52,208 bases of DNA from Victivallaceae bacterium (lineage in GTDB: Bacteria; Verrucomicrobiota; Lentisphaeria; Victivallales; Victivallaceae): assembly GCA_045605305.1 (NCBI GenBank), contig JAZUPS010000014.1, forward strand, positions 1 through 52,208. Reading direction: 5' to 3'. The notes below the pieces were generated by a model. It had not been told where the DNA came from, made no database searches, and saw only the letters and a list, made by a program, of their open reading frames with translations. Shown here piece by piece: positions 1,580 to 13,019 of this stretch; within the stretch, counting starts at the first letter, position 1; the number at the start of each line of letters is the position of its first letter. Position numbers and translations under genes: made by a program.

Positions 1580-4417
1580 ATGGTTGAAAACATCATTATC
1601 CGCGGTGCAAGTCAGCACAATTTGAAAAATATCGACCTGACCATCCCCCGCAACCGCTTGGTGGTGATCACCGGTTTATCCGGTTCGGGCAAGTCTTCTC
1701 TGGCTTTCGACACCCTTTACGCCGAAGGACAGCGGCGCTATGTGGAAAGTTTATCCGCTTACGCCAGACAGTTCCTCGACCTGATGCAGAAACCCAAAGT
1801 CGATCATATCGAAGGTCTCGCCCCGGCTATCGCCATTGAACAGCGCAGTGCCGGTGGCACGCCCCGCTCCACCGTCGCCACAGTGACGGAAATTTACGAC
1901 TATCTGCGTCTGCTTTACACCCATTGCGGCACGCCCCACTGTCCGAAGTGCGGCAAGGAGCTTGCCTCCCAATCCGCTGAAGCGATCACCCTGCAGTTGA
2001 TGGCGCTGGATGCCGGGAGCAAACTCACCATCCTTGCTCCGGTGGTTTCCGGTCGCAAAGGTGAACACCGGGATATATTGGAAAAGCTCCGCAGTGACGG
2101 CTTTATCCGCGCCCGTATCGACGGCGCAACACTCATGCTGGATGATGAGAATGAACCGCTGGAAAAAAATCTGCGCCACACCATCGAAGCAGTGGTAGAC
2201 CGGTTGAAAACCGGTTCAGTTGACCGTTCCCGTCTGACCGATTCGGTGGAAACGGCATTGAAACACGGCAACGGGGTGTTGACGGCGCTCATTGAAAAAG
2301 ACGGCGAAGTTACCGAAAAGAGTTTCTGTGAAAAACTTGCCTGTATCGATTGCGGCATCTCTTTCGGCGAAATGCTCCCGCGCAACTTCAGTTTCAACTC
2401 CCCCTACGGCGCCTGCAAATGCTGCAACGGCTTGGGAGTTCAACTCTGCATGGACCCGGAAAAAGTCGTTCCCGATCCCTCGCTTTCACTGAAAAACGGT
2501 GCGATTCCCGGCTGGCGGCGCGGTCCGCGCCATCTGATAATCTACTACAATATGATCCTGCGGAAATTTGCCGAACAATTCGGCGATCCCTCCCTTCTGA
2601 CCACGCCCTTTGCCAAACTGCCGGAAGATTTCAAACACAAACTGCTCTACGGTACCGGCAGCAACAATCTGGAATTTGATTACTACATGCACGGCAAAAA
2701 ATACCATTGGGCAAAGCCCTTTGAGGGAGTTCTGGAAAATCTCCGCCGCCGGATGGTGGAAACGGAGTCCGATTCCGTGCGGGAGCGGCTGGCGGCGTAT
2801 CAGAGTCCCCGGTGTTGTCCGGAGTGTCACGGCGACCGGCTCAATCCGCTGGCGCTTTCAGTGACTGTCGGCGGCAAAAATCTGGCTCAATTCAACGCCA
2901 TGAGCATCATTCAGGCAAAGGAGTTCGTCTCTTCGCTTCAACTCAATGAAGAACACTCCGTTATCGCCGCCGATGTGATCAAAGAGATCGGCAGCCGCCT
3001 CACCTTTCTTTGCGACGTGGGGTTGAACTACCTCACCCTCAACCGGGTAAGCAGTACCCTTTCCGGCGGAGAGGCTCAGCGGATCCGCCTTGCCACCCAG
3101 CTTGGCTGCGGTCTGGTGGGAGTATTGTACATCCTTGATGAACCTTCCATCGGTCTGCATCAGCGGGATAACGACATGCTTCTTGCCACACTGGAAAAAC
3201 TCCGGGATCTGGGCAACAGCGTCATTGTGGTGGAGCATGACCTTGACACCATCTGCCGGGCGGATTACCTGGTGGATCTCGGCCCGGCAGCGGGGGTGAA
3301 CGGCGGAGAGATCGTCGGAATCGGAACTCCGGAAGAGATCCCCTCATTTCCCCGCTCACTGACCGGGGATTTCCTCGCCGGCAGACGTAAAATCGCCGTC
3401 CCGGCAGTGCGGAACAAGGGCAACGGCAATTTCATCACCGTCAAAAAGGCATCATTTCACAACCTGAAAAATGTCACCGTGAAGTTTCCTCTCGGCACCC
3501 TCACCTGCATTACCGGAGTTTCCGGTTCGGGGAAATCCTCTCTGGTCAACGGTATTCTGGTGCGGGCGCTCAATGCCGCAAAAAATATTCAGGATGAACC
3601 TGTGGGCGCCTGTGAAGCAGTTGAAGGTCTGGAAAATGTGGATAAAGCGATCGTTATCGATCAGAGTCCCATCGGCAGAACTCCCCGCTCCAACCCCGCG
3701 ACTTACACCGGAGCCTTTGACATTATCCGCAAACTTTTTGCCGAAGTGCCGGAAGCGAAAATGCGGGGTTACAATCAGGGCAGATTCAGCTTCAACCTCA
3801 AAGGCGGCAGATGCGAAGAGTGCGCCGGAGACGGCATCCGCAAAATCGAAATGCAGTTCCTCGCCGATGCCACAGTCACCTGTGCTGCCTGCGGCGGCAA
3901 ACGTTTCAACAATGAGACTCTGCAGGTGCGCTACAAAGGGCTGAATATCCATGAAGTTTTGGAATTGACCATTGATCAGGCATTGGAATTATTCTCCAAT
4001 ATCCTGCCTTTGAAGCGGAAACTGCAGACTCTTCAGGATGTGGGTCTGGGTTATCTGAAACTCGGTCAGAGCGCCACCACCTTATCCGGCGGCGAAGCCC
4101 AGCGGATGAAACTTGCCTCTGAGTTGTCAAGAGTACCCAAAGGTCACACGGTCTACATCCTTGATGAACCTACCACCGGACTGCATCTGGCAGATATAGA
4201 TCAACTGCTCAAAGTGCTTTTCCGTCTGCGGGATATGGGCAACAGTGTCTTTGTTATCGAACACAATCTGGATGTGATCAAAACCGCCGATCACCTGATC
4301 GATCTTGGCCCGGAGGGGGGCGACGGCGGCGGCAGACTTATCGCCTGCGGCACGCCGGAAGAGGTCAGCAAAAACCGCTCATCCCATACCGCCAGTTTTC
4401 TCCGGAAACTCCTGTAA
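1580..4417 (+). CDS. uvrA: excinuclease ABC subunit A
   Basis: Two ABC modules (Walker A GLSGSGKSS and GVSGSGKSS; signature LSGGEAQR twice; Walker B ILDEPS/ILDEPT). Zinc-finger CxxC pairs (CPKCG, CIDCG, CPECHG, CEECAGDG...CAACGG). The conserved N-terminus MVENIIIRGASQHNLKNIDL begins at the ATG at 1580, so the track start at 1520 is an upstream extension. Confidence 0.97.
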   Translation: MVENIIIRGASQHNLKNIDLTIPRNRLVVITGLSGSGKSSLAFDTLYAEGQRRYVESLSAYARQFLDLMQKPKVDHIEGLAPAIAIEQRSAGGTPRSTVATVTEIYDYLRLLYTHCGTPHCPKCGKELASQSAEAITLQLMALDAGSKLTILAPVVSGRKGEHRDILEKLRSDGFIRARIDGATLMLDDENEPLEKNLRHTIEAVVDRLKTGSVDRSRLTDSVETALKHGNGVLTALIEKDGEVTEKSFCEKLACIDCGISFGEMLPRNFSFNSPYGACKCCNGLGVQLCMDPEKVVPDPSLSLKNGAIPGWRRGPRHLIIYYNMILRKFAEQFGDPSLLTTPFAKLPEDFKHKLLYGTGSNNLEFDYYMHGKKYHWAKPFEGVLENLRRRMVETESDSVRERLAAYQSPRCCPECHGDRLNPLALSVTVGGKNLAQFNAMSIIQAKEFVSSLQLNEEHSVIAADVIKEIGSRLTFLCDVGLNYLTLNRVSSTLSGGEAQRIRLATQLGCGLVGVLYILDEPSIGLHQRDNDMLLATLEKLRDLGNSVIVVEHDLDTICRADYLVDLGPAAGVNGGEIVGIGTPEEIPSFPRSLTGDFLAGRRKIAVPAVRNKGNGNFITVKKASFHNLKNVTVKFPLGTLTCITGVSGSGKSSLVNGILVRALNAAKNIQDEPVGACEAVEGLENVDKAIVIDQSPIGRTPRSNPATYTGAFDIIRKLFAEVPEAKMRGYNQGRFSFNLKGGRCEECAGDGIRKIEMQFLADATVTCAACGGKRFNNETLQVRYKGLNIHEVLELTIDQALELFSNILPLKRKLQTLQDVGLGYLKLGQSATTLSGGEAQRMKLASELSRVPKGHTVYILDEPTTGLHLADIDQLLKVLFRLRDMGNSVFVIEHNLDVIKTADHLIDLGPEGGDGGGRLIACGTPEEVSKNRSSHTASFLRKLL

Positions 4418-4426
4418 AACTGCGGT

Positions 4427-5269
4427 TCAAATCAAAGATCCGCAACTCTCCTTTGCCTTCAGCACTGTTCGATAACAAATTTCCCTTGCAGAAATTTCAG
4501 GATTTGCCAGAAGTGCTTCACCGGCGCACTCTGCCAGAGAACCGTAGAAACAGAATTTATTCATACTGTTCAGTTTTTTCCGGAAAAGTCTGCTCAGATC
4601 ATTGAATACCCAGCTCAACTGCCGGGCATGGGAGGTGGTCACTTCCAGAGGAGCGGGATAAAATCCGAACTCCCCCGGAATATTCTGCTTTTTCAGGGTG
4701 ATGACCACCCGCGCCCCGATCCAAAGATGTTTGGCTTTCGGCAGCGGTCCGGATGATTTGAGAAACTCAAGCATCTCTTCGATCCCCCTTGCGGCATCGG
4801 GGATATTTTTATCCTGCCACAACGTGTATCCGGTATCCGCTTCAGGAGCAAAAGCATCGGGGATGCCCCACTCCTGAGCGCCGGTGGAACAAATTTCCCG
4901 GTAACGGCCGGAAAACGGTCTGCGGTTACGGAAATCCTTGTACTCTTCAGTCATGGTGTAGACCCATGCCTTGCGGAACACCCCCCGGTTATCGGTAACA
5001 TCCACCTCGATTCTGGTGTAATATCCGGGGTAGCCTTCAAAGTGATCCAGAGCCGCCAGATCGTTGGCGCTTATCTGATAAAGAGCGCCATTGACCCACT
5101 CCCCGGGAGCCGGTTCAATATCCGCGTAAGTGCGTTCAGCCAGCGCCCATCCGGGAAGAGCGGCAGTTGAAATGCCGACTGATTCCGGGCAGCGCCTTGT
5201 CATCTGTTCCCGGTTGAGGTTGCTGCCGTAGGCAAAGTAAAGATAATTTTTCATTGCAGTCTCCGTCAA
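4427..5269 (-). CDS. gamma-glutamylcyclotransferase (AIG2/GGCT-fold) domain protein with ~140-aa C-terminal domain of unknown function
   Basis: N-terminal YFAYGSNLN...WVNGALYQI...LDHFEGYPGYYTRIEV matches the GGCT/GGACT YGSL motif and catalytic Glu context. The TTG start overlaps the stop of the upstream AAA gene by 4 nt; the ATG at M6 is an alternative start. Converges on uvrA with a 9-nt gap. Confidence 0.75.
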   Translation of the reverse strand: MTETAMKNYLYFAYGSNLNREQMTRRCPESVGISTAALPGWALAERTYADIEPAPGEWVNGALYQISANDLAALDHFEGYPGYYTRIEVDVTDNRGVFRKAWVYTMTEEYKDFRNRRPFSGRYREICSTGAQEWGIPDAFAPEADTGYTLWQDKNIPDAARGIEEMLEFLKSSGPLPKAKHLWIGARVVITLKKQNIPGEFGFYPAPLEVTTSHARQLSWVFNDLSRLFRKKLNSMNKFCFYGSLAECAGEALLANPEISAREICYRTVLKAKESCGSLI

Positions 5270-7572
5270 AAACCCATTTTATGAACGACCTCACCCAGAC
5301 CACGGCTGCCGGAACCGGAAGTTTTGCTCAAAACTTCGCTTGCAAGCGCCTCAATGATCTCGGAGTTGGAAAGTTTCCCGTCACTGAGATAGAAAAACTG
5401 CTGACGCACATTCCGGAAATCACTGGGAGTAAGTTTATCTATTTCAAAGAGTCTCTTTTTCTGAGCTTCAGTAAGTTTTTTCAGATTCATCGGTCTGGTA
5501 AAATAGACGTCGTAAAACACCTCCTTGCCCGGATCGTCAAGATAATCGAATTGGAGCCGGAAAGAGAAGCGCCGCAAGGCAGCCTGATCGATCCGCTGCA
5601 GCAAATTGGTGCTGCCGATAAAAATTCCCCGGAAACGATCCATTTCACTGAGCAGAGTATTGACTTGACTGACCTCCCAGCTTCTGACCGCACCATCCCG
5701 GCTGGAGAGCATGGAATCCAGTTCATCCATATAGAGGATAGAATTTTCAGCTTCCGCCTCGGCGAAGGCATTGGCGATCCTCTGCTCAGTGCCGCCGACA
5801 TACTTATTGAGCAGATCACTGGCGGTTTTGACGCAGAGTTTTTTATCCAGAACCTTTGCCAGATATTTTACAAACTCACTTTTGCCGCTGCCGGGAACAC
5901 CGGCAAGGAGGATCGACAGCCGGGGCTGATCCCGGTCGGCAACAATATCTCCGGACTTTTTCAAATAGTTTTTACATGCCTCCACCAGCCGGGGGAGCTG
6001 AATACCGCTGCGGATATTCAACCCCTCCAGAGAGTAATCCCTTGCCGGTTCGTGTTCTTCCGGAGTTTCCGGGATGCCCAGAAGATTGCAATGGGCTTTG
6101 AGAAATTCCATGACCTCTTTTTCAAAAACAAGTTCCGGATTTTTTCCACAGATGGCGGCGGCATTTTTCACTGAAATGGAGACTCCTCCGGCATTGACAT
6201 GGTAACGCCGGGAAACTCTTTCAATAAAAGCCTCGCTGAGTTTATTTTCGCAATGGTAAAACTCCAGAGCATTTTGCCAGATGTGCTTTCGTGCCATAGA
6301 GGAAAGATCGTCAAAAAAGACCGAATAATCAAACCGTCTCCGGGAACTGGGATCAATATCTTCATGTTTGCTGTTGGCGATCCACAAAATGGAGTGGCAG
6401 GAGGAGTCAAGAACGCTGTTGAGCTGCCCCTTTGCCTCCCCGTCCCGGCTGTTTCTGACATTGAGACCGAAAAGGCTCATCAATCCGCCGCCGAAAGAGT
6501 CGTTGGCAAGCATCTTATCCGCTTCATCCACGACCAGAATAGAGGTTTCCGGGGCGAGCTGTTTCTGAGCGACCGCCAGCGCCGCATAGCGGAAAGCCGG
6601 ACTGTAACTCATCTTTTTGCTGTCATCATTATTTTGAGCGATGAAATAGAGATCTCGGCCCAGTTCGTTTGCCAGACTGACGGCAAAACTGCTCTTGCCG
6701 CTGCCGGGGACACCGAAAAGGAGAATATTATTCTGATTTTTGGCTTTGATCATCCGTTTCAAAACAGTTCCGTGTTTTTCCGCCAGCTGACCATGGAAGT
6801 TCCACGGCAAAACTTCGCCCCGGTATTTCGTCCAAAACCTCTCGGCAAGGGGCTTGGAACTGATTCCGGAAAGATATGAGAGGAAGGTCTGATCCAGTTC
6901 CATATCATCATCCAGAAGTCCGTATTTGCGGATATTATTCTCATCTTTGAGAAGTTCAGCGGTTTCCACCTCAAGGAGACCGAGGATGCGGGAAGCGGCT
7001 TCCACCTTTTCCGCCGAGCGGTAACGGTTGATATCGAAGTCGCCCAATTCGCACACCCTGGTCTGACTGAGGAATACCGCGACCAGCAGGTGAAACTCCC
7101 GGTCATTGAGGTCAAAGATCTTTTTCATCTCATTGAAACGGATATTCACGGCGGATTTTTCCCGTTCCTCATTTTCGACCAGAGTTTTGTACTGCAAAAC
7201 CCGTTTATCGTAAATAAGTTTGAGTGCCTTCCACATCTTGCGGCGGTAAACCGGATTTTTACTGAGATAACTGATGATGTCATCGGGGTCCTCCTCGCCG
7301 ATCTCCGGCGGGGTGCGGTGACTTCTTGAGGCGGCAAGATTTTTCCGGCTCTCGCGGCTGATGATCCGGTCATACAATGATGCAAGTTCATCGGCGGTGA
7401 CATACTCTGCCACGGCGTTGAACCAGTCATGATCACCGGAGGTTTTCACACCGATCACATTGAGAATATTCCGGATACCGATACAGGTGTAATAGGCTTT
7501 GAAAAAGTCCACACCTTTACCGAACAACCGCTGATTTTCCACTTTGCTGATAAGAGAATTATTGTTTTCCAT
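5266..7572 (-). CDS. tandem AAA+ ATPase (unique ~270-aa N-domain plus two AAA modules, the second of classical-AAA type)
   Basis: Walker A twice (LLFGVPGSGKSS, LLAGVPGSGKSE). Walker B ILVVDEADK and ILYMDELDS. The second module has an SRH-like region, GSTNLLQRIDQAALRRF. 768 aa. Confidence 0.85.
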   Translation of the reverse strand: MENNNSLISKVENQRLFGKGVDFFKAYYTCIGIRNILNVIGVKTSGDHDWFNAVAEYVTADELASLYDRIISRESRKNLAASRSHRTPPEIGEEDPDDIISYLSKNPVYRRKMWKALKLIYDKRVLQYKTLVENEEREKSAVNIRFNEMKKIFDLNDREFHLLVAVFLSQTRVCELGDFDINRYRSAEKVEAASRILGLLEVETAELLKDENNIRKYGLLDDDMELDQTFLSYLSGISSKPLAERFWTKYRGEVLPWNFHGQLAEKHGTVLKRMIKAKNQNNILLFGVPGSGKSSFAVSLANELGRDLYFIAQNNDDSKKMSYSPAFRYAALAVAQKQLAPETSILVVDEADKMLANDSFGGGLMSLFGLNVRNSRDGEAKGQLNSVLDSSCHSILWIANSKHEDIDPSSRRRFDYSVFFDDLSSMARKHIWQNALEFYHCENKLSEAFIERVSRRYHVNAGGVSISVKNAAAICGKNPELVFEKEVMEFLKAHCNLLGIPETPEEHEPARDYSLEGLNIRSGIQLPRLVEACKNYLKKSGDIVADRDQPRLSILLAGVPGSGKSEFVKYLAKVLDKKLCVKTASDLLNKYVGGTEQRIANAFAEAEAENSILYMDELDSMLSSRDGAVRSWEVSQVNTLLSEMDRFRGIFIGSTNLLQRIDQAALRRFSFRLQFDYLDDPGKEVFYDVYFTRPMNLKKLTEAQKKRLFEIDKLTPSDFRNVRQQFFYLSDGKLSNSEIIEALASEVLSKTSGSGSRGLGEVVHKMGF

Positions 7573-7598
7573 AAGTAAGCTCCTTCTTTTACAACTTA

Positions 7599-8306
7599 TT
7601 ATTGTTCAAAATCTGAATCATCATCATCGCCATTTCCGGAAACGACCCCGGAAGATCCGTCGATGGAAAGATCGCGCATTTTGCACTCCGCAAACCGGAG
7701 CGCGGTACAGTCACTGCACAAAAAATCTGCTTCGGAAAGAAAACAGCCGCGAAGTTCTCCGGCAATGGTACTGTCGTTAAAAAGTCCCTGATGAAAGTCA
7801 CAATTTACCGCATAAAGTTTCAAATCAGGGCAATAATTGAATTCAATACACTGACCGGCACAATTTTCAAAGTGCAGTTCAGCCGAAGCGTGATGGAACT
7901 CAACTCCGTGAACTTTGCAGGAGCAAAAAAATATTTCTCCGGAGGCAAAATCAAAAGAGCTTGAATCCAAATTACACTCAACAAACTCCACCCCCGCCAT
8001 CGAAGCGTAATCAAAAGCACTGCGGTGGAGCTTGCACCGGATAAATCTGACATTGGAAAATTCAGTGAAGTTAAATTCACTGCCTTCAAAGTCGATACCG
8101 GAAAATACGATACCGGAAATTTTGGAAAAGGAAAAATCCGCCCGGATAACGGAGGTATTTTCCAGAGTAAGATCACTGATCTCAATATTCAGGAAACTTA
8201 CCTCACAGCTTACGGTATTCCGGGTGTTTTTTCCGGCAATGTCAACTTTCCGGAAAAATTCTCCGGGAGCAAGGATGGTGCGTCTGGTCATATTATCATT
8301 CATCAC
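7599..8306 (-). CDS. pentapeptide-repeat protein with acidic C-terminal tail (paralog 2)
   Basis: Continuous A(D/N)LxX-like five-residue periodicity (ADFSFSKISGIVFSGIDFEGSEFNFTEFSNVRFIRCKL...). Tail is ...SGNGDDDDSDFEQ. 26-nt gap to the AAA gene. Confidence 0.8.
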   Translation of the reverse strand: MMNDNMTRRTILAPGEFFRKVDIAGKNTRNTVSCEVSFLNIEISDLTLENTSVIRADFSFSKISGIVFSGIDFEGSEFNFTEFSNVRFIRCKLHRSAFDYASMAGVEFVECNLDSSSFDFASGEIFFCSCKVHGVEFHHASAELHFENCAGQCIEFNYCPDLKLYAVNCDFHQGLFNDSTIAGELRGCFLSEADFLCSDCTALRFAECKMRDLSIDGSSGVVSGNGDDDDSDFEQ

Positions 8307-8378
8307 TGGTAAAATTCCTGTATTGCTCCCGCCCCGGCGGAAATTTTCCGGGGGCGGGAAAGGTTATGCTGAAAACTC

Positions 8379-9134
8379 TCAATCCTCATCGAATTCAAGG
8401 TCATTCAACGCCTCTTCAAAGGCTTGATCAAAAACATCGTCAAAACCTTCAGCATCTTCAGCTTCAATGCCGTGTGAGGCATTATTTTCCAGGGAAAGGG
8501 CAGAAAGATCACTGCGGTTGAACTCCGCATCACTCAGATCACTGCGGCTGATTTTGCCCGCAAGGGTGCTGTCATTGAATTCAGCTCTTCTGAGCGAAGA
8601 GGAGACGGCATCAATCTCGATTTTGGCACAGTTCGCCTCCAATCCCGTACCGTTGACAGAGGTAAGGTTCATAAAAAAGGTACTGTTATTGAAAGTGGCG
8701 CGCTCCATCATGCAGGAAACTGCAGAGAAGTTGCCGCTGGCGAAGGGGAAGTCACAGCCTTTGAGATTGCAGTTGTAAAAGTTGCAATCAGAGATAGTTG
8801 CGAATGAAAAATCGGAGTTCTCCAAAGTACAGTTTTTGAATTGGCAGTTGTTGAAGACCGCGAAATGCCCCTCCATGCGGTTCAACCTGGTCTCCTCAAA
8901 GATACAGTCGGTAAAGAGCGCGTAAGCGGCTTCGGCACCGCTGAGGTCTTCGCCTTTGAAGGTAACGCCCTGAAAGTGGAAACAGCAAAAATTCCGTGCT
9001 TCGGAACGGCTGTCGTTGTAATCGCTGCACTTCTGAACTTTGCGGGCAGCTTCCGCTGCTCCCATTACGATACGTTCAGGGGGGAAGAGCAGATTGCTCT
9101 GTGCGGCGGCGGTGTTTTCAACATTCTTTTCCAT
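8379..9134 (-). CDS. pentapeptide-repeat protein with acidic C-terminal tail (paralog 1)
   Basis: Pentapeptide periodicity (CNLKGCDFPFASGNF, AEFNDSTLAGKISRSDLSDAEFNRSDLSAL). Tail is EAEDAEGFDDVFDQAFEEALNDLEFDED. AAAGGAGAAAG RBS precedes the ATG at 9134. Confidence 0.8.
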   Translation of the reverse strand: MEKNVENTAAAQSNLLFPPERIVMGAAEAARKVQKCSDYNDSRSEARNFCCFHFQGVTFKGEDLSGAEAAYALFTDCIFEETRLNRMEGHFAVFNNCQFKNCTLENSDFSFATISDCNFYNCNLKGCDFPFASGNFSAVSCMMERATFNNSTFFMNLTSVNGTGLEANCAKIEIDAVSSSLRRAEFNDSTLAGKISRSDLSDAEFNRSDLSALSLENNASHGIEAEDAEGFDDVFDQAFEEALNDLEFDED

Positions 9135-9169
9135 AATTTCTTTCTCCTTTTATTTACGGAACTGATGAT

Positions 9170-9198
9170 ATTATACGGTATCTGAAAAATTTTTTTCA
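9170..9198 (-). promoter_or_regulatory. sigma70-like promoter candidate for the pentapeptide/AAA/GGCT operon
   Basis: On the minus strand: perfect TATAAT (9175-9170), 17-nt spacer, TGAAAA (9198-9193). About 30 nt upstream of the RBS of the 9134 gene. Confidence 0.45.
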
Positions 9199-9244
9199 CC
9201 CAAACCCCGGTGAGATCTGAACCGGTGTTTCACAAGGCGCTGTT

Positions 9245-9712
9245 CCACAGCGGCAGCATCCGGAAATCCCCCGGTTTCAGGTTGCAACGGTAAATTTTCA
9301 AGAATTTTTGAGAACTTTTGAAATTCCTCCGATGAGGTAATGGCAAAAGTCTATCAAAAAAAGATTGAAAAAAATACCGTTGATGAGATGAAAGCTGGTA
9401 GTTTGATCCGGCTTCGGTTGCTTCGCAACTCTACGCCGAGACAAGGGGTGCTACCCACGGCGGTAACACCCAAAAACGCTCCGCTTTCAGATCGCGACAG
9501 GAATTTTCAAAAATTTTTGCGAACTTTTGAAATTCCTCCGATGAGGTAATGGCAAAAGTCTATCAAAAAAAGATTGAAAAAATACCGTTGATGAGATGAA
9601 AGCTGGTAGTTTGAGGGTGCTACCCACAGCGGTAACACCCGAAAACGCTCCGCTTTCAGATCGCGACGGGAATTTTCAAGATTTTTTGAGAACTTTTGAA
9701 ATTACCTCCTAA
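9245..9712 (-). repeat. tandem direct repeat, ~170-nt unit, about 2.6 copies (candidate minus-strand structured RNA)
   Basis: A-part copies lie at ~9245-9330 (degenerate), 9446-9539 and 9615-9709. B-part copies lie at 9331-9406 and 9540-9614. Copy 1 carries a 39-nt insertion (9407-9445). Each full unit has a 10-bp hairpin (9446-9471, 9615-9640) and a 7-bp hairpin (9472-9488, 9641-9657). Their imperfect positions are G-U pairs in minus-strand RNA but A-C mismatches in plus-strand RNA. Confidence 0.7.
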
Positions 9713-9858
9713 ACATTGCTGGTACTCAGGATGCCGCAGTAGGCTCCCGGGCCGCCCTGCGCCTTTGCCGCCTCCATTGCCGCCATGGCGGAATTTGCGA
9801 CGACTTCGACGATGATCTGACCTTTCCGGGTGTTGACCCACAACTTGTACTTTTTCAT
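9709..9858 (-). CDS. small 49-aa protein, absent from the ORF track (below its size cutoff); possible double-glycine-type peptide
   Basis: I translated it by hand, codon by codon: MKKYKLWVNTRKGQIIVEVVANSAMAAMEAAKAQGGPGAYCGILSTSNV. Strong RBS (GAAAGGAGCAACC-ATG). The stop TAG (9711-9709) abuts the first repeat unit. A GG lies at residues 35-36, with M(-12), E(-8), A(-7), A(-4) spacing, followed by a 13-aa Cys/Ser/Thr-containing tail. Confidence 0.55.
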   Translation of the reverse strand: MKKYKLWVNTRKGQIIVEVVANSAMAAMEAAKAQGGPGAYCGILSTSNV

Positions 9859-9897
9859 GGTTGCTCCTTTCGTTGGTTTGGTTGAGGTTGCTATTTA

Positions 9898-9937
9898 CAG
9901 AAAACCTTCCACTGTTTTCTGAAAACCAAATATATCA
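9898..9937 (-). promoter_or_regulatory. extended -10 promoter candidate plus 5'-proximal hairpin upstream of the 49-aa ORF
   Basis: Minus strand: TGaTATATT (9937-9929), the same TGTGATAT(A/G)TT form as at 206-215. It is followed by a perfect 8-bp inverted repeat, CAGAAAAC-N8-GTTTTCTG (9921-9898). Confidence 0.3.
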
Positions 9938-9991
9938 CACTGTGCCGGACATCTTTTGTCTGACATTCCGATTTCCGATAAAATTTTTGGC

Positions 9992-10195
9992 TTATGCCTG
10001 CATTGCCAGTGAAAAACATATCATATAGATCATAACTCCTATCCCGCAGATCCATGCCACGACCCCGCAAGCACTCCCCAAAGCGATAAAAAACTGTACC
10101 ACCCAGTAGAGAAAAAATATAAAGATCACCGAAAAAATCAGATACCAGAAAATTGACAATGCCAGAATCGCATTCCGCTGGATTTTTCTCATCAT
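9992..10195 (-). CDS. small hydrophobic (about 2-TM) membrane protein
   Basis: 67-aa ORF MMRKIQRNAILALSIFWYLIFSVIFIFFLYWVVQFFIALGSACGVVAWICGIGVMIYMICF. AAGGAG lies 4-7 nt upstream of the two ATGs. ATGA overlap with the upstream ORF stop. Preferred over the overlapping 102-aa frame 9891-10199. Confidence 0.45.
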   Translation of the reverse strand: MMRKIQRNAILALSIFWYLIFSVIFIFFLYWVVQFFIALGSACGVVAWICGIGVMIYMICFSLAMQA

Positions 10196-10473
10196 TCATC
10201 TCCTTTGCTGCTGAAAAAAGTTATCCACGGCCGGAGGAATACCGTATATAATATAATGAACATCAGAAAATACATAAGCACGTGAGGAAAACGTATCATG
10301 ATACGAACTGCGCTCCCGGCAAGAATGATCCATCCGATTTTATTCATAACTCCTCCTGCCATTCCGCCCCCGTCAACGGGTGCGATAGTGACGGTAATGC
10401 CCTCTGCGGTGACGGGATTTCCCCCATTTACGAATGGTTTTGGCTCCGAAAAATTTGACTCGCATAACTCCAT
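10192..10473 (-). CDS. small membrane protein (start uncertain)
   Basis: 93-aa ORF with a C-terminal hydrophobic region, IGWIILAGSAVRIMIRFPHVLMYFLMFIILYTVFLRPWITFF. An internal start at MNKIGW (51 aa) has a better RBS (AGGAGGAGTT-ATG) than the ATG at 10473. Confidence 0.4.
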   Translation of the reverse strand: MELCESNFSEPKPFVNGGNPVTAEGITVTIAPVDGGGMAGGVMNKIGWIILAGSAVRIMIRFPHVLMYFLMFIILYTVFLRPWITFFSSKGDE

Positions 10474-10538
10474 CCTTTCTGCCGGAACTCCGGCGGTTTA
10501 TTGTTTTGACACCGATTACATACGGCATGAGCGGGATG

Positions 10539-10598
10539 TTTTTTCAAAAATTTTTGGAGTTTTTGGAAAAATTTTGACAATTTTTGAAAATTTTTCTG
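10539..10598. promoter_or_regulatory. six phased T-tracts with 10-bp periodicity (intrinsically curved DNA or repeated operator) in the divergent control region
   Basis: tttttcaaaaa/tttttggagt/ttttggaaaa/attttgacaa/tttttgaaaa/tttttctgcg: a T4-5 run recurs every 10 nt. Lies between the minus-strand small-ORF cluster (start 10473) and the sigma gene (10834). Confidence 0.45.
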
Positions 10599-10775
10599 CG
10601 GTTTGCAATCAATAACGCGCCTGACAAAAGCATGGCACTGGATTTGAAGAAAAATGTCAAAAAAGGATAGTGTCTGGAATTTCAAGGAGGCTGTTCGCAG
10701 AATACACCGCAAAATTACAAAATTTGGACTTCCTGCAGGGGCATAAACAACCTCTCCGGAGAGTAATTGCGACAC

Positions 10776-10803: not shown

Positions 10804-10833
10804 AACGGGGTAATCAAAAAAGGAGAACCGCCC

Positions 10834-11658
10834 ATGCCGATCATTTCATCCGAAGAGTTTTTCAATGTACTGGAAAATTGTGATACCGAAAGTTTGTACG
10901 CTGCATCCCACTCTTTTGCCGCCAGCCACAAAAGTTATTCATCCGGCGGCAACGGATTTTCCATTGATAAAACCTCCCGGACCGTAATGGGCGATATGCT
11001 CGCAAAAACCGGGGATACCCCCGCTGATCAAATTGATGATATGAGAAGCCGCCGGGAAAAAGCGATCGAAGATTTCTGCTATATTTACGGCGGATACATC
11101 GCGTACAATTTGAGAAAAAAACTGCACTGGATGGGATATAAAAACATCCCTCTGGAGGATAAATATATCTCCACCGCCACCGGACAGGTGTTGAACAGCA
11201 TTATCCGTAATCTGAATAGATACGGTTACAAAGCAGGAACCTTCAGCCACCTCGTTCACCGGTCGATAAAAAATAAAGCCATTGATGTCAAAAAGCTCTA
11301 TATCAACCGGAAAAAGGAAAATCCCCAGGAAATCTCCTTTGAAAATGCTCAAGAGATCCTCGGCGGCAAACTCGAGGTTGACGGGTATAACGGCACCTGT
11401 GAGCCGGAAACAAATTTCGATGAAAAAAAACTGGAGGTTTCCGGGATCATGCAGCTGCTCAAAAGCGTAAAAACCAAAAATTCCGCTGATGATTACAATA
11501 TGTTCATCCTTAACCGCATATATAAACATAAATTGCAGGATGTCGCAGAAAAATTTGATATTTCCATCGCCACCGCCAGCCGCAGGATCAATGATTTTGC
11601 CGTCGCCGCCATCACCATGTACAATCAGAAAAAGCGGGAAATGGAAAATTACCAATGA
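10834..11658 (+). CDS. sigma-70 family (ECF-like) RNA polymerase sigma factor with ~70-aa N-terminal extension
   Basis: Region-2-like segment IEDFCYIYGGYIAYNLRKK...FSHLVHRSIKNKAIDVKK. Region-4 HTH segment FILNRIYKHKLQDVAEKFDISIATASRRINDF. The antisense 238-aa ORF is a shadow. Confidence 0.7.
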   Translation: MPIISSEEFFNVLENCDTESLYAASHSFAASHKSYSSGGNGFSIDKTSRTVMGDMLAKTGDTPADQIDDMRSRREKAIEDFCYIYGGYIAYNLRKKLHWMGYKNIPLEDKYISTATGQVLNSIIRNLNRYGYKAGTFSHLVHRSIKNKAIDVKKLYINRKKENPQEISFENAQEILGGKLEVDGYNGTCEPETNFDEKKLEVSGIMQLLKSVKTKNSADDYNMFILNRIYKHKLQDVAEKFDISIATASRRINDFAVAAITMYNQKKREMENYQ

Positions 11659-13010
11659 CCGAAGAAAAGTGGCTGCTGCTTGCCGGTCAGGAAGTAACCG
11701 TTTCCGCAGGGTGCGATGAAAAAGTCAAACTGGGCAATTTGCTCGGCTGCGGCGGTGCCGGAGCAGTTTTTGACTTTTGCCGGTGGGGAACTCAAGAGTG
11801 GGTGGTAAAAGTTCTCGACCCGGAATCCCCCGTGGCAGAACAGGAACTCAAAAGCCTCAAACGCTACCGCAGCGGTATTAGATATGAGATCGCTTTGATG
11901 AAGTTCCACAGCTGGACAGGGACATTGAGGCACAAAGATAAAATATATCCCTGTTACCTGATGCGCAAGGGCAGAACCCTGACCGGAGCGATCGAAAACC
12001 ATGAACCGTGGCTGGATGATCCGCATGAGGTGATGCGGATAACTGCCACTCTGGTCACCGGGATCATCTCCCTGAAAAATGCCGGTATCTCCCACGGCGA
12101 CATCAAAACGGATAATATCCTGCTCTTTGAGTATCAGGATACCTTCCATGCGATGTTTTCGGATTACGGCACCGTTTCGGAAGAAAAACTTACCGTGCGC
12201 ACGATCCCCTATCAGTGTGACACTTCTGAATATGATTCTCTTCTGGAAGAACGCATTGCCTATGATCTTCACTGTCTCTATCTGGTTCTGTGCCGGATAT
12301 ACGACGTAAAAAATGATGTGATACCTCTGCATGTTGACGACAGAATCTTCAAACTTCTTCAGCTTATGAGAAACAACAATATGAAAGCATTTGAAAGATT
12401 GAAGAAGCTCATGGATCATCTGCCGGCAGATCGTATCAAGCTGCCCGTATCATTTCACCTCGATGCAGTGCCGCGGTATAAATTGACGGAAAATTTCCCC
12501 TTTGAAAAGGTTATGCAATGGGGAGAATATTGTGTTCTGCGGGATAAAAATGCGATTCCAGGGGAAAATTTTGATCCTCTGCTGTTGATGAAGATCCCTC
12601 CGGATCGTTATGATACGGTCTGTAAAATCATTGCCGCGCACAACAATATTGAAACATTTGTCATGCCGATTGCCCGCTATTTTGACAGTGACGGCGGGGA
12701 ATATGTATTGATCCATGCTCCGGATGACAAGCGCAAGTGCCGTCACCATCGGCACACTGATATTGAGGATGAGCGGCTCCGGGATGACTCCGGCACACCT
12801 TATACTCTGGCTCTGGCGCCGGATGATATGAAAAAACAGCAAATCGCTTATTTTATCAGAGTCATATCCAATTTGCCAATGCCGGTGGATGTGGAAATTT
12901 CCGCACCGGCTATCTGGCATCTGGATAGACACTGGAAGCTCAACCTTTTTGCGGTCGATCTTCTCCAAACGGGAAAATCCCGTGACCGCGTCTGTATAAA
13001 GTGGGAATAA
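11655..13010 (+). CDS. Hanks-type Ser/Thr protein kinase-like protein, cytoplasmic, with ~190-aa C-terminal domain of unknown function
   Basis: G-loop LGCGGAGAVF, VVKVL lysine, catalytic loop HGDIKTDNILL, DFG-equivalent SDYGT. No TM segment. The ATG overlaps the sigma stop (ATGA at 11655-11658). Confidence 0.75.
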   Translation: MTEEKWLLLAGQEVTVSAGCDEKVKLGNLLGCGGAGAVFDFCRWGTQEWVVKVLDPESPVAEQELKSLKRYRSGIRYEIALMKFHSWTGTLRHKDKIYPCYLMRKGRTLTGAIENHEPWLDDPHEVMRITATLVTGIISLKNAGISHGDIKTDNILLFEYQDTFHAMFSDYGTVSEEKLTVRTIPYQCDTSEYDSLLEERIAYDLHCLYLVLCRIYDVKNDVIPLHVDDRIFKLLQLMRNNNMKAFERLKKLMDHLPADRIKLPVSFHLDAVPRYKLTENFPFEKVMQWGEYCVLRDKNAIPGENFDPLLLMKIPPDRYDTVCKIIAAHNNIETFVMPIARYFDSDGGEYVLIHAPDDKRKCRHHRHTDIEDERLRDDSGTPYTLALAPDDMKKQQIAYFIRVISNLPMPVDVEISAPAIWHLDRHWKLNLFAVDLLQTGKSRDRVCIKWE

Positions 13011-13019
13011 AGCTCCGCT

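What the first reader, a model, noticed from the sequence alone, without database searches (positions are those of the whole stretch)
4427..9198. Operon combining two acidic-tailed pentapeptide-repeat paralogs, a tandem AAA+ ATPase and a GGCT/AIG2 fusion protein
Seen in the sequence:
- Four co-directional minus-strand genes with 72-nt and 26-nt gaps and a 4-nt overlap, behind a perfect TATAAT candidate (9175-9170) and a strong RBS.
- The two pentapeptide-repeat proteins (PRPs) share one architecture: a ~60-aa head, ~150 aa of five-residue repeats, and an extremely acidic tail (...FDDVFDQAFEEALNDLEFDED and ...GNGDDDDSDFEQ). The second ends in Gln.
- The ATPase has a unique 270-aa N-domain and two Walker A/B modules; the second is classical-AAA with an SRH.
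- The last gene fuses a GGCT/AIG2 fold (YFAYGSNLN...LDHFEGYPGYY) to an unrecognised 140-aa domain.

Established knowledge: PRPs such as Qnr, MfpA, AlbG and McbG are DNA mimics that shield gyrase from toxins. Classical AAA modules are unfoldases/remodelers. GGCT/GGACT enzymes cleave gamma-glutamyl amide bonds, including the epsilon-(gamma-glutamyl)-lysine isopeptide.

Inference: I know of no described system with this gene combination. Two readings are plausible. One is a conflict module (toxin immunity or anti-phage), with the DNA-mimic PRPs as decoys or sensors. The other is an unfoldase plus gamma-glutamyl-isopeptide-processing module, in which the acidic tails act as recognition tags. Both readings are speculative.
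Basis: partly seen in the sequence, partly recalled or inferred. Interest (0 to 1): 0.72.

Follow-up and report, generated by a model that had tools for sequence, protein, structure and literature searches.

The report
Acidic-tailed pentapeptide proteins with ClpP-type unfoldase
A gene cluster conserved in gut Lentisphaeria pairs acid-tailed, DNA-shaped repeat proteins with a two-ring protein-unfolding ATPase that ends in the peptide ClpX uses to dock on the ClpP protease, plus a gamma-glutamyl-cleaving enzyme; this points to an undescribed kind of ClpP partner with its own clients.

Summary
The four minus-strand genes exist as described and the cluster is not a chance juxtaposition. All eight sampled loci that encode a close (>50% identity) relative of the GGCT-fusion protein have an acidic-tailed pentapeptide-repeat protein (PRP) directly upstream. 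Six of the eight have a tandem AAA ATPase in between, from either of two different families.

The module is larger than reported, spanning 4427-13010. It also holds small membrane and small soluble proteins and a divergent sigma-like/Ser-Thr-kinase pair.

The main new result concerns the 768-aa ATPase. Its family ends in [I/M/L/V]-G-F, the ClpX-type ClpP-docking tripeptide. The motif is present in 49 of 56 locus homologs against 0 of 561 other ORFs, and in 113 of 142 distant representatives. clpP lies directly beside the ATPase in eight related loci. Acidic C-terminal tails are enriched on neighbours of the ATPase, in several unrelated protein families.

Best reading: a classical-AAA (Cdc48-like) unfoldase that feeds ClpP, with the PRPs as clients engaged through their tails.

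The Pup-like isopeptide idea is not supported. The biological role (regulated proteolysis or conflict system) and the GGCT substrate remain open. Nothing here was tested biochemically.

The parts
4427..5269 (-). GGCT-fusion protein (280 aa from TTG at 5269; 275 aa from ATG at 5254). The N-terminal half is a gamma-glutamyl cyclotransferase fold. The C-terminal ~140 aa form a basic domain of unknown fold family.
   Evidence: Pfam GGACT 5e-19. Matches human GGCT by sequence at 3.7e-8. The AF2 model has pLDDT 93 and pTM 0.90. Foldseek matches human GGCT at E 8e-12 with TM 0.72. YFAYGSN and the Glu of FEGY are invariant in 24 homologs. The C-domain has no PDB sequence match and pI 9.1.
5266..7572 (-). 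Two-ring (type II) classical AAA+ ATPase of 768 aa. It has an all-alpha N-domain (1-270), D1 (about 271-500) and D2 (about 546-768).
   Evidence: Pfam AAA 4.7e-38. Best PDB relatives are VAT, Cdc48, p97 and AFG2. The N-domain model has pLDDT 86 and no fold match in PDB or BFVD, with E > 0.5.
5269..5280 (-). C-terminal K-M-G-F of the ATPase: an IGF-type tripeptide at the very C-terminus, a candidate ClpP-docking motif.
   Evidence: [ILMV]GF lies within the last 7 residues in 49 of 56 homologs from 68% down to 28% identity, against 0 of 561 other ORFs. It lies within the last 9 residues in 113 of 142 full-length 50%-cluster representatives. The role of IGF loops in ClpP docking is reviewed in PMC9035409.
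5791..5805 (-). D2 pore loop 1, K-Y-V-G-G.
   Evidence: V592 and G593 are invariant in alignment A1.
7599..8306 (-). PRP2: a pentapeptide-repeat protein of 235 aa. It is the type found directly upstream of this ATPase family.
   Evidence: Pfam Pentapeptide_4 1e-11. Orthologs sit directly upstream of the ATPase in 12 loci.
7602..7637 (-). Acidic C-terminal tail of PRP2, GNGDDDDSDFEQ.
   Evidence: Orthologous tails include ..DDEEEDEFDFDL..DDDDDFNFDFD..DDDDDDDDDDDFPF and ..DDEDDFPFA.
8307..8378 (-). Intergenic GC-rich hairpin between PRP1 and PRP2, with no U-run. It may act as a processing or stability element or as a partial terminator.
   Evidence: RNA fold of -26.7 kcal/mol, z -3.5, with 0 of 200 shuffles folding as well.
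8379..9134 (-). PRP1: a pentapeptide-repeat protein of 251 aa, a distant paralog of PRP2 (27% identity).
   Evidence: Pfam Pentapeptide 1e-10. It is 58% identical to the PRP that precedes the other ATPase family in L076.
8382..8465 (-). Acidic amphipathic tail of PRP1, EAEDAEGFDDVFDQAFEEALNDLEFDED.
   Evidence: The same type of tail occurs in the PRP1 orthologs of L076, L170 and L174.
9170..9199 (-). Promoter-like site GTGAAA-18-TATAAT upstream of PRP1.
   Evidence: This is a consensus match only.
9289..9703 (-). Three copies of a 31-nt AT-rich motif (TTTCAAAAGTTCTCAAAAATTCTTGAAAATT) inside direct repeats spaced 169-209 nt apart. Candidate promoter or operator elements.
   Evidence: Degenerate copies lie at 10535-10595. 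There is no Rfam match.
9709..9858 (-). Previously unlisted 49-aa ORF (MKKYKLWVNTRKGQIIVEVV...) with its own GGAG ribosome-binding site.
   Evidence: It is 68-74% identical to small ORFs just upstream of the PRP in L025 and L172 and 57% to the one in L174. L176 carries a homolog of the same small ORF.
9992..10195 (-). A 67-aa two-transmembrane protein.
   Evidence: Homologs lie at the same position in L011 and L170. Similar small two-TM ORFs seen by eye in L076, L078 and L172.
10192..10347 (-). A 51-aa membrane protein. It is the conserved C-terminal part of the mechanical 93-aa ORF 10192-10473.
   Evidence: tblastn with L170_58 and with L011. A ribosome-binding site, AGGAGGAG, precedes the ATG at 10347.
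10373..10465 (-). Possible 30-aa basic peptide (MRVKFFGAKTIRKWGKSRHRRGHYRHYRTR).
   Evidence: It is 42% identical over 38 aa to the 49-aa ORF of L172. This call is tentative.
10834..11658 (+). Sigma-70/ECF-like protein of 274 aa, transcribed divergently from the operon.
   Evidence: TIGR02937 at 9e-5, below the curated cut-off. Orthologs lie at the same position in L076, L078, L170 and L172. The 282-aa gene at that position in L176 has only a faint Sigma70_r4 hit.
11655..13010 (+). Hanks-type Ser/Thr kinase-like protein of 451 aa. It overlaps the sigma-like gene by 4 nt.
   Evidence: Pfam Pkinase 8e-9. Orthologs in L076, L078 and L170; a longer Pkinase gene sits at that position in L176.

Best explanation
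**What it is.** The cluster is part of a conserved accessory operon of Lentisphaeria. Its mechanical core is a double-ring, Cdc48-type AAA+ protein unfoldase.

**How the ATPase most likely works.**
- It carries a ClpX-type I/M-G-F tripeptide on a flexible C-terminal tail.
- It therefore most likely docks onto the ClpP peptidase. clpP is encoded elsewhere in this genome and next to the ATPase in related ones.
- The placement of the docking peptide resembles that of proteasome activators (a C-terminal tail). The peptide itself is the ClpP type.

**Role of the PRPs.**
- The two PRPs are rigid, acidic beta-helices that resemble DNA in shape and charge.
- I infer that they are the ATPase's cognate clients. 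Their disordered acidic-aromatic C-terminal tails would be the handle by which they are tethered to the novel N-domain (adaptor, as with SspB) or fed into the pore (substrate).
- ATP-driven remodelling or degradation of the PRP, or of whatever it binds, would be the regulated step.

**Other components.**
- The GGCT-fusion enzyme is the constant partner of the PRPs. It is predicted to be catalytically active on a gamma-glutamyl amide with a free alpha-amine. Its substrate is unknown.
- The divergent sigma-like/Ser-Thr-kinase pair probably controls transcription of the operon.

**Shown.** The synteny, the motifs, the folds and the enrichments.

**Inferred.** ClpP docking, tail recognition, the direction of regulation and the link to GGCT.
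For: **Synteny**
- A PRP lies directly upstream of this ATPase family in 12 loci.
- All eight sampled loci with a close GGCT-fusion relative have a PRP directly upstream. Six of the eight have a tandem AAA in between. Three of these belong to this family and three to a second family that is only about 30% identical in the AAA cores.
- The pairing is specific. PRP2-type proteins go with family 1 and PRP1-type with family 2.

**Unfoldase features**
- Walker A and B are intact in both rings, and D2 has a KYVG pore loop.
- The closest solved relatives are VAT, Cdc48, p97 and AFG2.

**ClpP link**
- The C-terminal [ILMV]GF is present in 49 of 56 homologs across phyla against 0 of 561 other ORFs.
- It is present in 113 of 142 distant representatives.
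- It also occurs in the second ATPase family (..MGFGK) and in homologs on viral contigs (..IGFGR).
- A bona fide clpP (PF00574, 9e-85) is adjacent and co-directional in L014, L015, L020, L021, L028, L030, L033 and L174. It sits upstream in some and downstream in others, and spans both the 60-68% and the 44-49% identity clades.
- The function of IGF loops in ClpP docking is taken from PMC9035409.

**Tails**
- Acidic tails occur on 13 of 258 neighbours within 2.5 kb against 1 of 332 farther away (Fisher p = 1.5e-4). All 13 are on the ATPase strand.
- They occur in several unrelated protein families.

**GGCT**
- The active-site residues are conserved and the fold matches.

**Regulation**
- The sigma-like/kinase pair is conserved at the same divergent position in the window, L076, L078 and L170, with a comparable kinase plus faint Sigma70_r4 pair in L176.
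- Direct phosphorylation of ECF sigma factors by Ser/Thr kinases, and kinase-associated ECF groups, are documented (PMC7826278).
Against: - No clpP lies in this 52-kb window.
- No binding or degradation has been tested.
- In known ClpP partners the IGF motif sits in an internal loop of an HCLR-clade AAA+ module, not at the C-terminus of a classical AAA module. The docking is therefore argued by analogy.
- clpP-adjacent loci and PRP-adjacent loci overlap only in L174/L175.
- Many homologs of the ATPase stand alone, for example L001.
- Two GGCT-fusion loci have acidic-tailed PRPs but no adjacent ATPase (L078, L176). The tail may therefore serve the PRP's own function or contact the basic GGCT C-domain.
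- The loci compared are related to one another, so the counts are not independent events.
- The role of GGCT in any proteolysis scheme is unexplained.
Confidence: 0.45

Rival explanations
1. The cluster is a conflict module: anti-phage defence, abortive infection, or a toxin-antitoxin-like system. In this reading the PRP is a labile inhibitor or a DNA-mimic decoy or sensor. The GGCT-fusion is the effector, replaced in other loci by a caspase or ClpP. The AAA ATPase, with or without ClpP, removes the PRP when triggered. The machinery is the same as in the best explanation, but the biological purpose is different.
For: - The module lies in a stretch of lower G+C (0.45-0.48, against 0.52-0.55 to the left).
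- Its distribution among close relatives is patchy.
- The gene that follows the ATPase varies: GGCT-fusion, a caspase-domain protein in L012, or ClpP.
- Neighbours are of kinds common in conflict systems: a Dda/PIF1-like helicase, a Ser/Thr kinase resembling PD-T4-6, and VWA.
- Distant homologs on plasmids pair with WYL-domain proteins beside transposases and nucleases.
- D2 resembles IetA (1e-30; 7e-52 for the second family). IetAS is an ATPase-antitoxin/protease-toxin pair (PMC13069673).
- The order PRP then GGCT, with a 26-nt gap and no ATPase in L078, looks like an antitoxin-toxin pair.
Against: - The PRPs and the GGCT-fusion match no PADLOC model.
- The close family was not found on viral contigs. 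Only relatives at 27-42% identity were.
- No toxicity of a GGCT enzyme in bacteria is known to me.
- An operon with a sigma/kinase pair, small membrane proteins and a secreted protein is equally typical of a stress regulon.
- No known defence genes were seen flanking the window's module.
Confidence: 0.25
2. The PRPs are topoisomerase-protection factors of the Qnr/MfpA/AlbG/McbG kind. The ATPase is an accessory NTPase that helps them act on, or clear, poisoned gyrase complexes. This would be analogous to the MfpB GTPase that works with MfpA.
For: - The pentapeptide fold is present and the protein bodies are acidic, with pI about 4.8 without the tails.
- There are weak similarities to the Qnr and MfpA models.
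- A precedent of a PRP working with a P-loop NTPase is known to me from the literature on the mycobacterial mfp operon. I did not check it here.
Against: - Scores against the Qnr and MfpA equivalog models are far below their cut-offs (30 against 240; 25 against 360).
- No toxin-biosynthesis or export genes are nearby.
- This reading explains neither the C-terminal IGF motif, nor the acidic tails on unrelated neighbours, nor the constant GGCT partner.
Confidence: 0.1
3. This is a Pup-like tagging or de-tagging system. The acidic tails, one ending in Gln, would be conjugated through a gamma-glutamyl isopeptide bond, recognised by the ATPase, and removed by the GGCT enzyme.
For: - PRP2 ends in Gln, and Pup is likewise acidic, disordered and recognised by an AAA ATPase.
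- GGACT enzymes cleave free epsilon-(gamma-glutamyl)-lysine (established knowledge).
Against: - The terminal residue of the tails is not conserved: L, D, F, E, K, A and M all occur.
- No PafA/Dop-like, ATP-grasp or glutamine-synthetase-like ligase is present in any of the loci.
- Cyclotransferase chemistry needs a free alpha-amine on the gamma-glutamyl residue. A protein C-terminal residue does not have one (established enzymology).
- The ATPase N-domain model is a globular, confidently packed helical bundle with no PDB match. I did not specifically test for the Mpa coiled-coil/OB arrangement.
Confidence: 0.03
4. The genes are unrelated housekeeping genes that happen to be neighbours.
For: Many ATPase homologs stand alone or have other neighbours.
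Against: - The PRP-AAA-GGCT order recurs with proteins only 40-65% identical, and with two different ATPase families in the same slot.
- The intergenic distances are short.
- The PRP-type/ATPase-family pairing is specific.
Confidence: 0.03

Closest known systems
ClpXP / ClpAP / ClpCP (Clp AAA+ proteases) with tail-tethered adaptors such as SspB
   Same: - A hexameric unfoldase is predicted.
- An I/M/L/V-G-F tripeptide is present, the element that docks ClpX, ClpA and ClpC into the hydrophobic pockets of ClpP (PMC9035409).
- clpP is a recurrent direct neighbour.
- Client proteins carry a flexible C-terminal peptide, as SspB and ssrA-tagged substrates do.
   Different: - The AAA modules belong to the classical clade (PF00004; Cdc48, FtsH, Vps4 and spastin-like), not the HCLR clade.
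- The tripeptide is at the extreme C-terminus rather than in an internal loop.
- The N-domain is a new all-alpha fold.
- The proposed clients are pentapeptide-repeat proteins.
- No experiment has been done.
Archaeal Cdc48/VAT and PAN, and bacterial Mpa/ARC, docking on the 20S proteasome through C-terminal HbYX or GQYL tails
   Same: - The unfoldase is of the classical AAA type, and VAT/Cdc48 likewise has two rings.
- A short docking motif at the C-terminal tip is preceded by a polar, probably flexible linker.
- In the case of Pup and Mpa, the client is acidic and disordered.
   Different: - The motif is IGF-type, not HbYX or GQYL.
- The neighbouring peptidase is ClpP, not a 20S proteasome.
- The N-domain model shows no match to any solved structure.
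- There is no tagging ligase.
IetAS (Ietas) toxin-antitoxin and anti-phage system
   Same: - An AAA ATPase is encoded with a protease or other effector.
- D2 gives its best defence-library match to IetA.
   Different: - IetA is a single-ring protein of about 370 aa.
- The score is far below the NCBIfam cut-off (93 against 510).
- There is no IetS subtilase.
- IetAS has no PRP or GGCT partner.
Qnr / MfpA / AlbG / McbG pentapeptide-repeat topoisomerase protectors
   Same: - A right-handed quadrilateral beta-helix of pentapeptide repeats with an acidic, DNA-like surface is expected.
- MfpA also works with a neighbouring NTPase.
   Different: - Our PRPs have a head of about 60 aa and a long acidic-aromatic C-terminal tail that I do not know from those proteins (not checked here).
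- Scores against their models are far below the cut-offs.
- The operon partners are entirely different.
Human GGCT and GGACT (gamma-glutamyl cyclotransferase fold)
   Same: - The fold, the YGSN substrate pocket and the catalytic Glu are all conserved.
   Different: - The enzyme is fused to a conserved basic domain of about 140 aa with no recognisable relatives.
- It is always encoded behind an acidic-tailed PRP.

Membership tests
Clp-type ClpP-partner unfoldases (ClpX/ClpA/ClpC) | AAA+ module of the HCLR clade | tested here: not met
   D2 matches PF00004 (classical AAA) at 4.7e-38. The best solved relatives are VAT, Cdc48, p97 and AFG2. ClpX and ClpA models score only 1e-5 to 1e-6.
Clp-type ClpP-partner unfoldases (ClpX/ClpA/ClpC) | [I/L/V/M]-G-[F/L] ClpP-docking tripeptide | tested here: inconclusive
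   The tripeptide is present and strongly conserved (49 of 56 and 113 of 142). It lies at the C-terminus rather than in an internal loop, so its function as a docking element is inferred.
Clp-type ClpP-partner unfoldases (ClpX/ClpA/ClpC) | Physical binding to ClpP and activation of it | not testable with these tools
   Neither complex prediction nor biochemistry was available.
Clp-type ClpP-partner unfoldases (ClpX/ClpA/ClpC) | Genomic linkage to clpP (frequent but not obligatory) | tested here: inconclusive
   clpP is adjacent and co-directional in eight related loci and lies 4.3 kb away in a ninth. It is absent from this 52-kb window.
Type II classical AAA ATPases (Cdc48/p97/VAT-like) | Two AAA modules with Walker A and B, an SRH arginine pair and an aromatic-hydrophobic-Gly pore loop | tested here: met
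   Motifs are located and are invariant in A1. The pore loop and the RR pair are clear in D2. D1 has Walker A and B and an RRR motif but no canonical pore loop.
Type II classical AAA ATPases (Cdc48/p97/VAT-like) | N-domain of the double-psi barrel plus beta-clam type | tested here: not met
   The N-domain model is all-alpha (15 helices, pLDDT 86) and has no PDB match with E < 1.
IetAS defence / toxin-antitoxin system | IetA-family ATPase above the family threshold, plus an IetS subtilase partner | tested here: not met
   The NCBIfam IteA model scores 93 bits against a cut-off of 510. No subtilase is present in the window or in the related loci.
Qnr / MfpA pentapeptide-repeat protection proteins | Score above the equivalog model cut-off | tested here: not met
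   Qnr scores 30 and 26 bits against a cut-off of 240. MfpA scores 25 bits against 360.
Qnr / MfpA pentapeptide-repeat protection proteins | Binding to or protection of gyrase or topoisomerase IV | not testable with these tools
   This needs biochemistry or susceptibility assays.
Pentapeptide-repeat proteins (general) | Tandem A(D/N)LXX-type five-residue repeats detected by the Pfam models | tested here: met
   PF00805 and PF13599 are above the gathering score for both proteins.
GGCT / GGACT (gamma-glutamyl cyclotransferase fold) | The fold, the YGSN(L) pocket and the catalytic Glu | tested here: met
   Pfam GGACT scores 69 bits against a cut-off of 22.8. Foldseek matches 3cry and 2rbh at E 1e-11 with TM 0.72. 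The residues are invariant in 24 homologs. Enzyme activity was not tested.
Pupylation (Pup-proteasome) system | A conserved C-terminal GGQ or GGE on the tag, and a PafA/Dop ligase or deamidase | tested here: not met
   The tails end in varied residues. No such enzyme is present in any of the loci examined.
Ser/Thr-kinase-regulated ECF sigma factors (ECF43-like) | A sigma-2/sigma-4 ECF core with an adjacent Hanks kinase | tested here: inconclusive
   The adjacent kinase is present (Pkinase 8e-9). The sigma match is weak: TIGR02937 scores 22 bits against a cut-off of 43.

The most novel reading that the evidence does not exclude
The 768-aa protein represents a large class of ClpP activators that spans several phyla and has not been recognised. 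They are built from Cdc48-type rings that dock through a C-terminal IGF tail. At least 140 clusters at 50% identity are known, including homologs on plasmids and on viral contigs. In Lentisphaeria this machine would use DNA-mimicking pentapeptide-repeat proteins with acidic-aromatic tails as dedicated adaptors or substrates. It would be coupled to a gamma-glutamyl-cleaving enzyme in a kinase/sigma-controlled switch. That would be a new logic for regulated proteolysis or immunity.
Probability: 0.3. Interest if true: 0.85.

Novelty: new variant of a known kind. Interest (0 to 1): 0.68.

Why it matters
**For the ClpP field.** As far as I know, all characterised ClpP partners are HCLR-clade Hsp100/Clp ATPases that dock through internal IGF loops. 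Classical-clade unfoldases are known to dock only on 20S proteasomes, through C-terminal tails. A classical AAA family with a C-terminal IGF tail would bridge the two solutions and enlarge the set of ClpP partners. It would also give a simple, testable motif, because deleting two residues should break the complex.

**For pentapeptide-repeat proteins.** Their functions outside gyrase protection are mostly unknown. A specific pairing of two PRP types with two unfoldase families offers a concrete biochemical handle on what such proteins do.

**For GGCT enzymes.** The constant GGCT-fusion partner points to a gamma-glutamyl compound or modification in these gut anaerobes that nobody has looked for.

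Tried and rejected
**Readings rejected**
- Pup-like tag. The terminal residue is not conserved, there is no ligase, and the chemistry does not fit.
- Membership in Qnr/MfpA or IetA. Scores are far below the curated cut-offs.

**Searches that found nothing**
- PADLOC gave no hit for the PRPs, the GGCT-fusion or the sigma-like protein.
- Rfam at the E-value threshold over 4000-13500 gave no match.
- ARAGORN found no tRNA in the window, so there is no obvious integration site.
- Fold searches with the ATPase N-domain against PDB and BFVD gave nothing below E 0.5.
- A profile of the GGCT C-domain against PDB sequences gave nothing below E 0.3. The whole-chain Foldseek search was dominated by the GGCT half.
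- Literature searches for the gene combination, for a C-terminal-IGF or Cdc48-like ClpP partner, and for acidic-tailed PRPs found nothing relevant. The library does not hold all journals.

**Searches of limited use**
- The metagenome scan with the GGCT-fusion alignment was swamped by generic GGCT genes matching the YFAYGSNL pattern. It added only one informative locus, L092.
- The viral-contig scan with the ATPase alignment gave only relatives at 27-42% identity. The annotated phage collection gave only partial matches.
- The word-indexed search with PRP2 returned only 9 relatives.

**Method problems**
- My first ORF-based neighbour listing was noisy.
- Greedy ORF calling missed several clpP genes, which tblastn later found.

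**Other**
- The 31-nt AT-rich motif was found outside the window only in L011, and weakly in L013. It is therefore not a general feature of the module.

Full report
**1.

One search lists four co-directional minus-strand ORFs:
- 8379-9134 (PRP1, 251 aa)
- 7599-8306 (PRP2, 235 aa)
- 5266-7572 (ATPase, 768 aa)
- 4427-5269 (GGCT-fusion, 280 aa)

The gaps are 72 and 26 nt, and the last two genes overlap by 4 nt. If the last gene starts at the ATG at 5254, as the 275-aa product held in the protein collection suggests (P0121), the overlap becomes an 11-nt gap.

A GTGAAA-18-TATAAT site lies at 9199-9170 and an AAGGAG ribosome-binding site precedes PRP1. Promoter-like sites are no more frequent in the region than in shuffled sequence, so this site is only a candidate.

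Pfam confirms the domains:
- pentapeptide repeats in both PRPs
- two AAA modules, the second a strong PF00004 match
- a GGACT domain at residues 11-123 of the last protein, with nothing known behind it

The motifs are intact. Walker A and B are present in both rings, and D2 has a KYVG pore loop and an RR pair. The PRP tails are strongly acidic, with net charges of -14 and -7 over the last 30 residues.

**2. The cluster is conserved and larger than reported**

*ATPase homologs.* Homologs at 44-68% identity are almost confined to Lentisphaeria and Victivallales from gut and rumen. Many stand alone. In 12 loci, however, a PRP2-type protein sits directly upstream.

*The GGCT-fusion.* It is a conserved two-domain family. 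I sampled eight independent loci encoding a relative more than 50% identical: the window, L076, L078, L170, L172, L174, L176 and L179.
- All eight have an acidic-tailed PRP directly upstream.
- Six have a tandem AAA ATPase between the PRP and GGCT.
- In three of those six the ATPase belongs to a different family ("AAA2", 744-747 aa). It is only about 30% identical to the window's ATPase and only in the AAA cores.

*Pairing rule.* PRP1-type proteins (58% identical to PRP1) precede AAA2. PRP2-type proteins precede the window's family. The window, L174 and L176 carry both PRP types in tandem.

*Further members of the module.*
- The sigma-like gene (10834-11658) and the Ser/Thr kinase gene (11655-13010) lie at the same divergent position in L076, L078 and L170. 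L172 keeps a sigma-like fragment at its contig end. L176 has a longer Pkinase gene and a gene with a faint Sigma70_r4 hit at that position.
- Small two-transmembrane ORFs recur in the same place (9992-10195 and 10192-10347).
- A 49-aa ORF (9709-9858), absent from the default 60-aa ORF list, recurs too. It is 68-74% identical to ORFs in L025 and L172 and 57% to the one in L174. L176 carries a homolog as well.

The unit in the window is therefore about 4427-13010. This stretch has lower G+C (0.45-0.48) than the sequence to its left (0.52-0.55).

**3. What the ATPase is**

By sequence it is a type II classical AAA ATPase. The best solved relatives are VAT, Cdc48, p97 and AFG2.

The N-terminal 270 residues fold with confidence into an all-helical domain (pLDDT 86, pTM 0.81). 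That domain has no counterpart in the PDB or in BFVD.

The decisive feature is the C-terminus. Every close homolog ends in K-[M/I/L]-G-F. The motif persists at or within a few residues of the C-terminus in homologs down to 28% identity from Kiritimatiellia, Desulfobacterales, Rhodocyclales, Pseudoalteromonas and viral contigs. Examples are ..RIGF..GIGFGN..KIGFV and ..PIGFGR.
- It is present in 49 of 56 ATPase ORFs, against 0 of 561 other ORFs in the same loci.
- An exhaustive profile search returned its best 150 representatives, all at E below 1e-109. Of the 142 full-length proteins among them, 113 have [ILMV]GF within the last nine residues.
- The unrelated AAA2 family ends in ..P/T-MGFGK.

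I-G-F is the tripeptide by which ClpX, ClpA and ClpC dock into the hydrophobic pockets of ClpP (PMC9035409).

In line with this, a bona fide clpP (PF00574, 9e-85) lies directly beside the ATPase, on the same strand, in eight loci:
- upstream in L014 and L015
- downstream in L020, L021, L028, L030, L033 and L174/L175

It also lies 4.3 kb away in L009. In L174 the order is PRP1-type, PRP2-type, AAA, ClpP, GGCT-fusion. This is the window's operon with clpP inserted.

I infer that this family delivers substrates to ClpP. It would use the docking peptide of the Clp ATPases, placed as proteasome activators place their HbYX or GQYL motifs (the latter point is from my own knowledge). This is an inference. 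The window itself has no clpP and nothing was tested biochemically.

**4. What the PRPs and their tails are for**

The tails are acidic runs followed by alternating aromatic or aliphatic and acidic residues. Examples are ..DDEEEDEFDFDL..DDDDDFNFDFD..DDDDDDDDDDDFPF and ..DDEDDFPFA. PRP1-type tails form longer acidic amphipathic stretches.

Tails of this kind are not restricted to PRPs.
- A 196-219-aa protein with no family match, encoded downstream of the ATPase in L006, L015 and L027, ends in ..DDDFEFDMM or ..DDLLEFDLM.
- A 246-aa protein in L036 and others also have acidic tails.
- In total, 13 of 258 genes within 2.5 kb of the ATPase have a tail with at least 45% Asp/Glu. All 13 are on the ATPase strand. 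Among genes farther away the count is 1 of 332 (p = 1.5e-4, but the loci are related to one another).

Taken with the type-specific PRP/ATPase pairing, the simplest reading is that the tail is the element the ATPase recognises. It could be a tether to the N-domain, making the PRP an adaptor in the manner of SspB. It could instead be a C-terminal initiation site, making the PRP a substrate. I cannot tell which.

The PRP bodies are acidic (pI about 4.8). By analogy with solved PRPs they should resemble DNA in shape and charge. An adaptor of that kind could bring DNA-binding proteins to the unfoldase. That step is speculation.

**5. The GGCT-fusion**

The model is confident (pLDDT 93, pTM 0.90). 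Its N-terminal half superposes on human GGCT (E 8e-12). The YGSN pocket and the catalytic Glu are invariant. The enzyme should therefore cleave a gamma-glutamyl amide that has a free alpha-amine.

The C-terminal half is conserved and basic (pI 9.1), and has no detectable relatives.

Its tightest genomic partner is the PRP, not the ATPase, as L078 and L176 show. One possibility is that the basic C-domain contacts the acidic tail. Another is that the PRP controls the enzyme. Both are conjectures.

The Pup-like idea fails for three reasons. The tails do not share a terminal residue. There is no ligase. A protein's C-terminal Glu has no free alpha-amine for cyclisation.

**6. Biological role**

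Two readings use the same machinery.

*(a) A kinase/sigma-controlled regulated-proteolysis module.* This would be a stress regulon. Sigma/Ser-Thr-kinase pairs are a documented regulatory unit (PMC7826278).

*(b) A conflict system.* The evidence for it:
- lower G+C and patchy distribution
- a variable gene behind the ATPase: GGCT-fusion, a caspase-domain protein in L012, or ClpP
- Dda/PIF1-like helicase, VWA and kinase neighbours
- WYL-domain partners of distant plasmid homologs
- similarity of D2 to IetA, whose system pairs an ATPase antitoxin with a protease toxin

The evidence against it:
- PADLOC has no model for the PRPs or the GGCT-fusion.
- The close family is not on viral contigs.

I rank (a)-type mechanics as shown in part and leave the purpose open.

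**7. Comparison with known systems and novelty**

The ATPase works like a Clp ATPase but fails a defining membership feature, the HCLR clade. It is a classical type II AAA protein but lacks the Cdc48-type N-domain. It is not IetA, and the PRPs are not Qnr or MfpA, because all these scores are far below the curated cut-offs.

I found no paper describing a classical AAA partner of ClpP with a C-terminal IGF motif. I also found none describing a PRP/AAA/GGCT operon.

I classify the finding as a new variant of a known kind: an AAA+ protease with dedicated clients. A more novel reading remains possible, namely a widespread new class of ClpP activators together with a PRP-based switch.

Noticed in passing
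window 9289-9703 and 10535-10595: Three copies of a 31-nt AT-rich motif (TTTCAAAAGTTCTCAAAAATTCTTGAAAATT on the minus strand) lie inside direct repeats spaced 169-209 nt apart upstream of PRP1. Three degenerate copies lie in the divergent promoter region. One near-perfect copy occurs in L011 at 8533-8563. There is no Rfam match. They may be binding sites for the island's own sigma-like factor.
   Followed up: partly
window 9709-9858 (-): A 49-aa ORF, too short for the default 60-aa ORF listing (MKKYKLWVNTRKGQIIVEVVANSAMAAMEAAKAQGGPGAYCGILSTSNV), is conserved just upstream of the PRP: 68-74% identity in L025 and L172, 57% in L174. L176 carries a homolog too. L004 and L005 have small ORFs that look similar by eye upstream of the ATPase.
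   Followed up: partly
window 8307-8378 (-): A stable GC-rich hairpin (-26.7 kcal/mol, z -3.5) lies in the PRP1-PRP2 gap and is not followed by a U-run. It could set different expression levels for PRP1 and the downstream genes.
   Followed up: partly
window 10192-10473 (-): The mechanical 93-aa ORF is probably two genes. One is a 30-aa very basic peptide (10373-10465, in another frame) resembling a 49-aa ORF in L172. The other is a 51-aa membrane protein (10192-10347) with its own strong ribosome-binding site.
   Followed up: partly
L076 4691-6925, L170 5686-7920, L179 1944-4187: A second tandem-AAA family (744-747 aa; WHD plus two AAA modules; ends ..MGFGK) occupies the same slot between a PRP1-type protein and the GGCT-fusion. 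Its D2 matches IetA at 7e-52.
   Followed up: partly
L006 10940-11530, L015 12796-13455, L027 6848-7438: A 196-219-aa protein family with no Pfam, PHROG or PADLOC match is encoded downstream of the ATPase and ends in the same kind of acidic-aromatic tail (..DDDFEFDMM). In L006 it is followed by an ATP-dependent DNA ligase and a helicase.
   Followed up: partly
L012 12535-13935: A 466-aa caspase-domain (Peptidase_C14, 4e-20) protein with a hydrophobic C-terminus follows the PRP-ATPase pair, in the position where other loci have the GGCT-fusion.
   Followed up: no
L018 6820-7191, L078 2000-2374, L079 5956-6345, L170 35-415: A small (124-129 aa) membrane protein with an HExxH motif (..AEHEKQHT..) recurs near the module. 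In L078 and L170 it lies next to an M28 peptidase.
   Followed up: no
L181 (Desulfosarcina plasmid) and L182 (Leisingera plasmid); also L052, L055, L057, L058, L062: Distant homologs of the ATPase in Proteobacteria and Desulfobacteria are paired with WYL-domain proteins (annotated as such in L181 and L182; judged by eye in the other loci). They sit among transposases, nucleases and helicases on plasmids, which is a defence-island-like context.
   Followed up: partly
L044 11547-11939, L046 7474-7836; L040, L042, L054 downstream genes: In Kiritimatiellia the related ATPase is followed by a small protein with a J-domain-like HPD motif, or by a protein of about 260 aa that looks like Sel1/TPR repeats. 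Both were judged by eye only.
   Followed up: no
window 4417-4427: The uvrA stop codon (plus strand, ends 4417) and the GGCT-fusion stop codon (minus strand, starts 4427) are only 9 nt apart. The two convergent genes therefore have no room for separate terminators.
   Followed up: no
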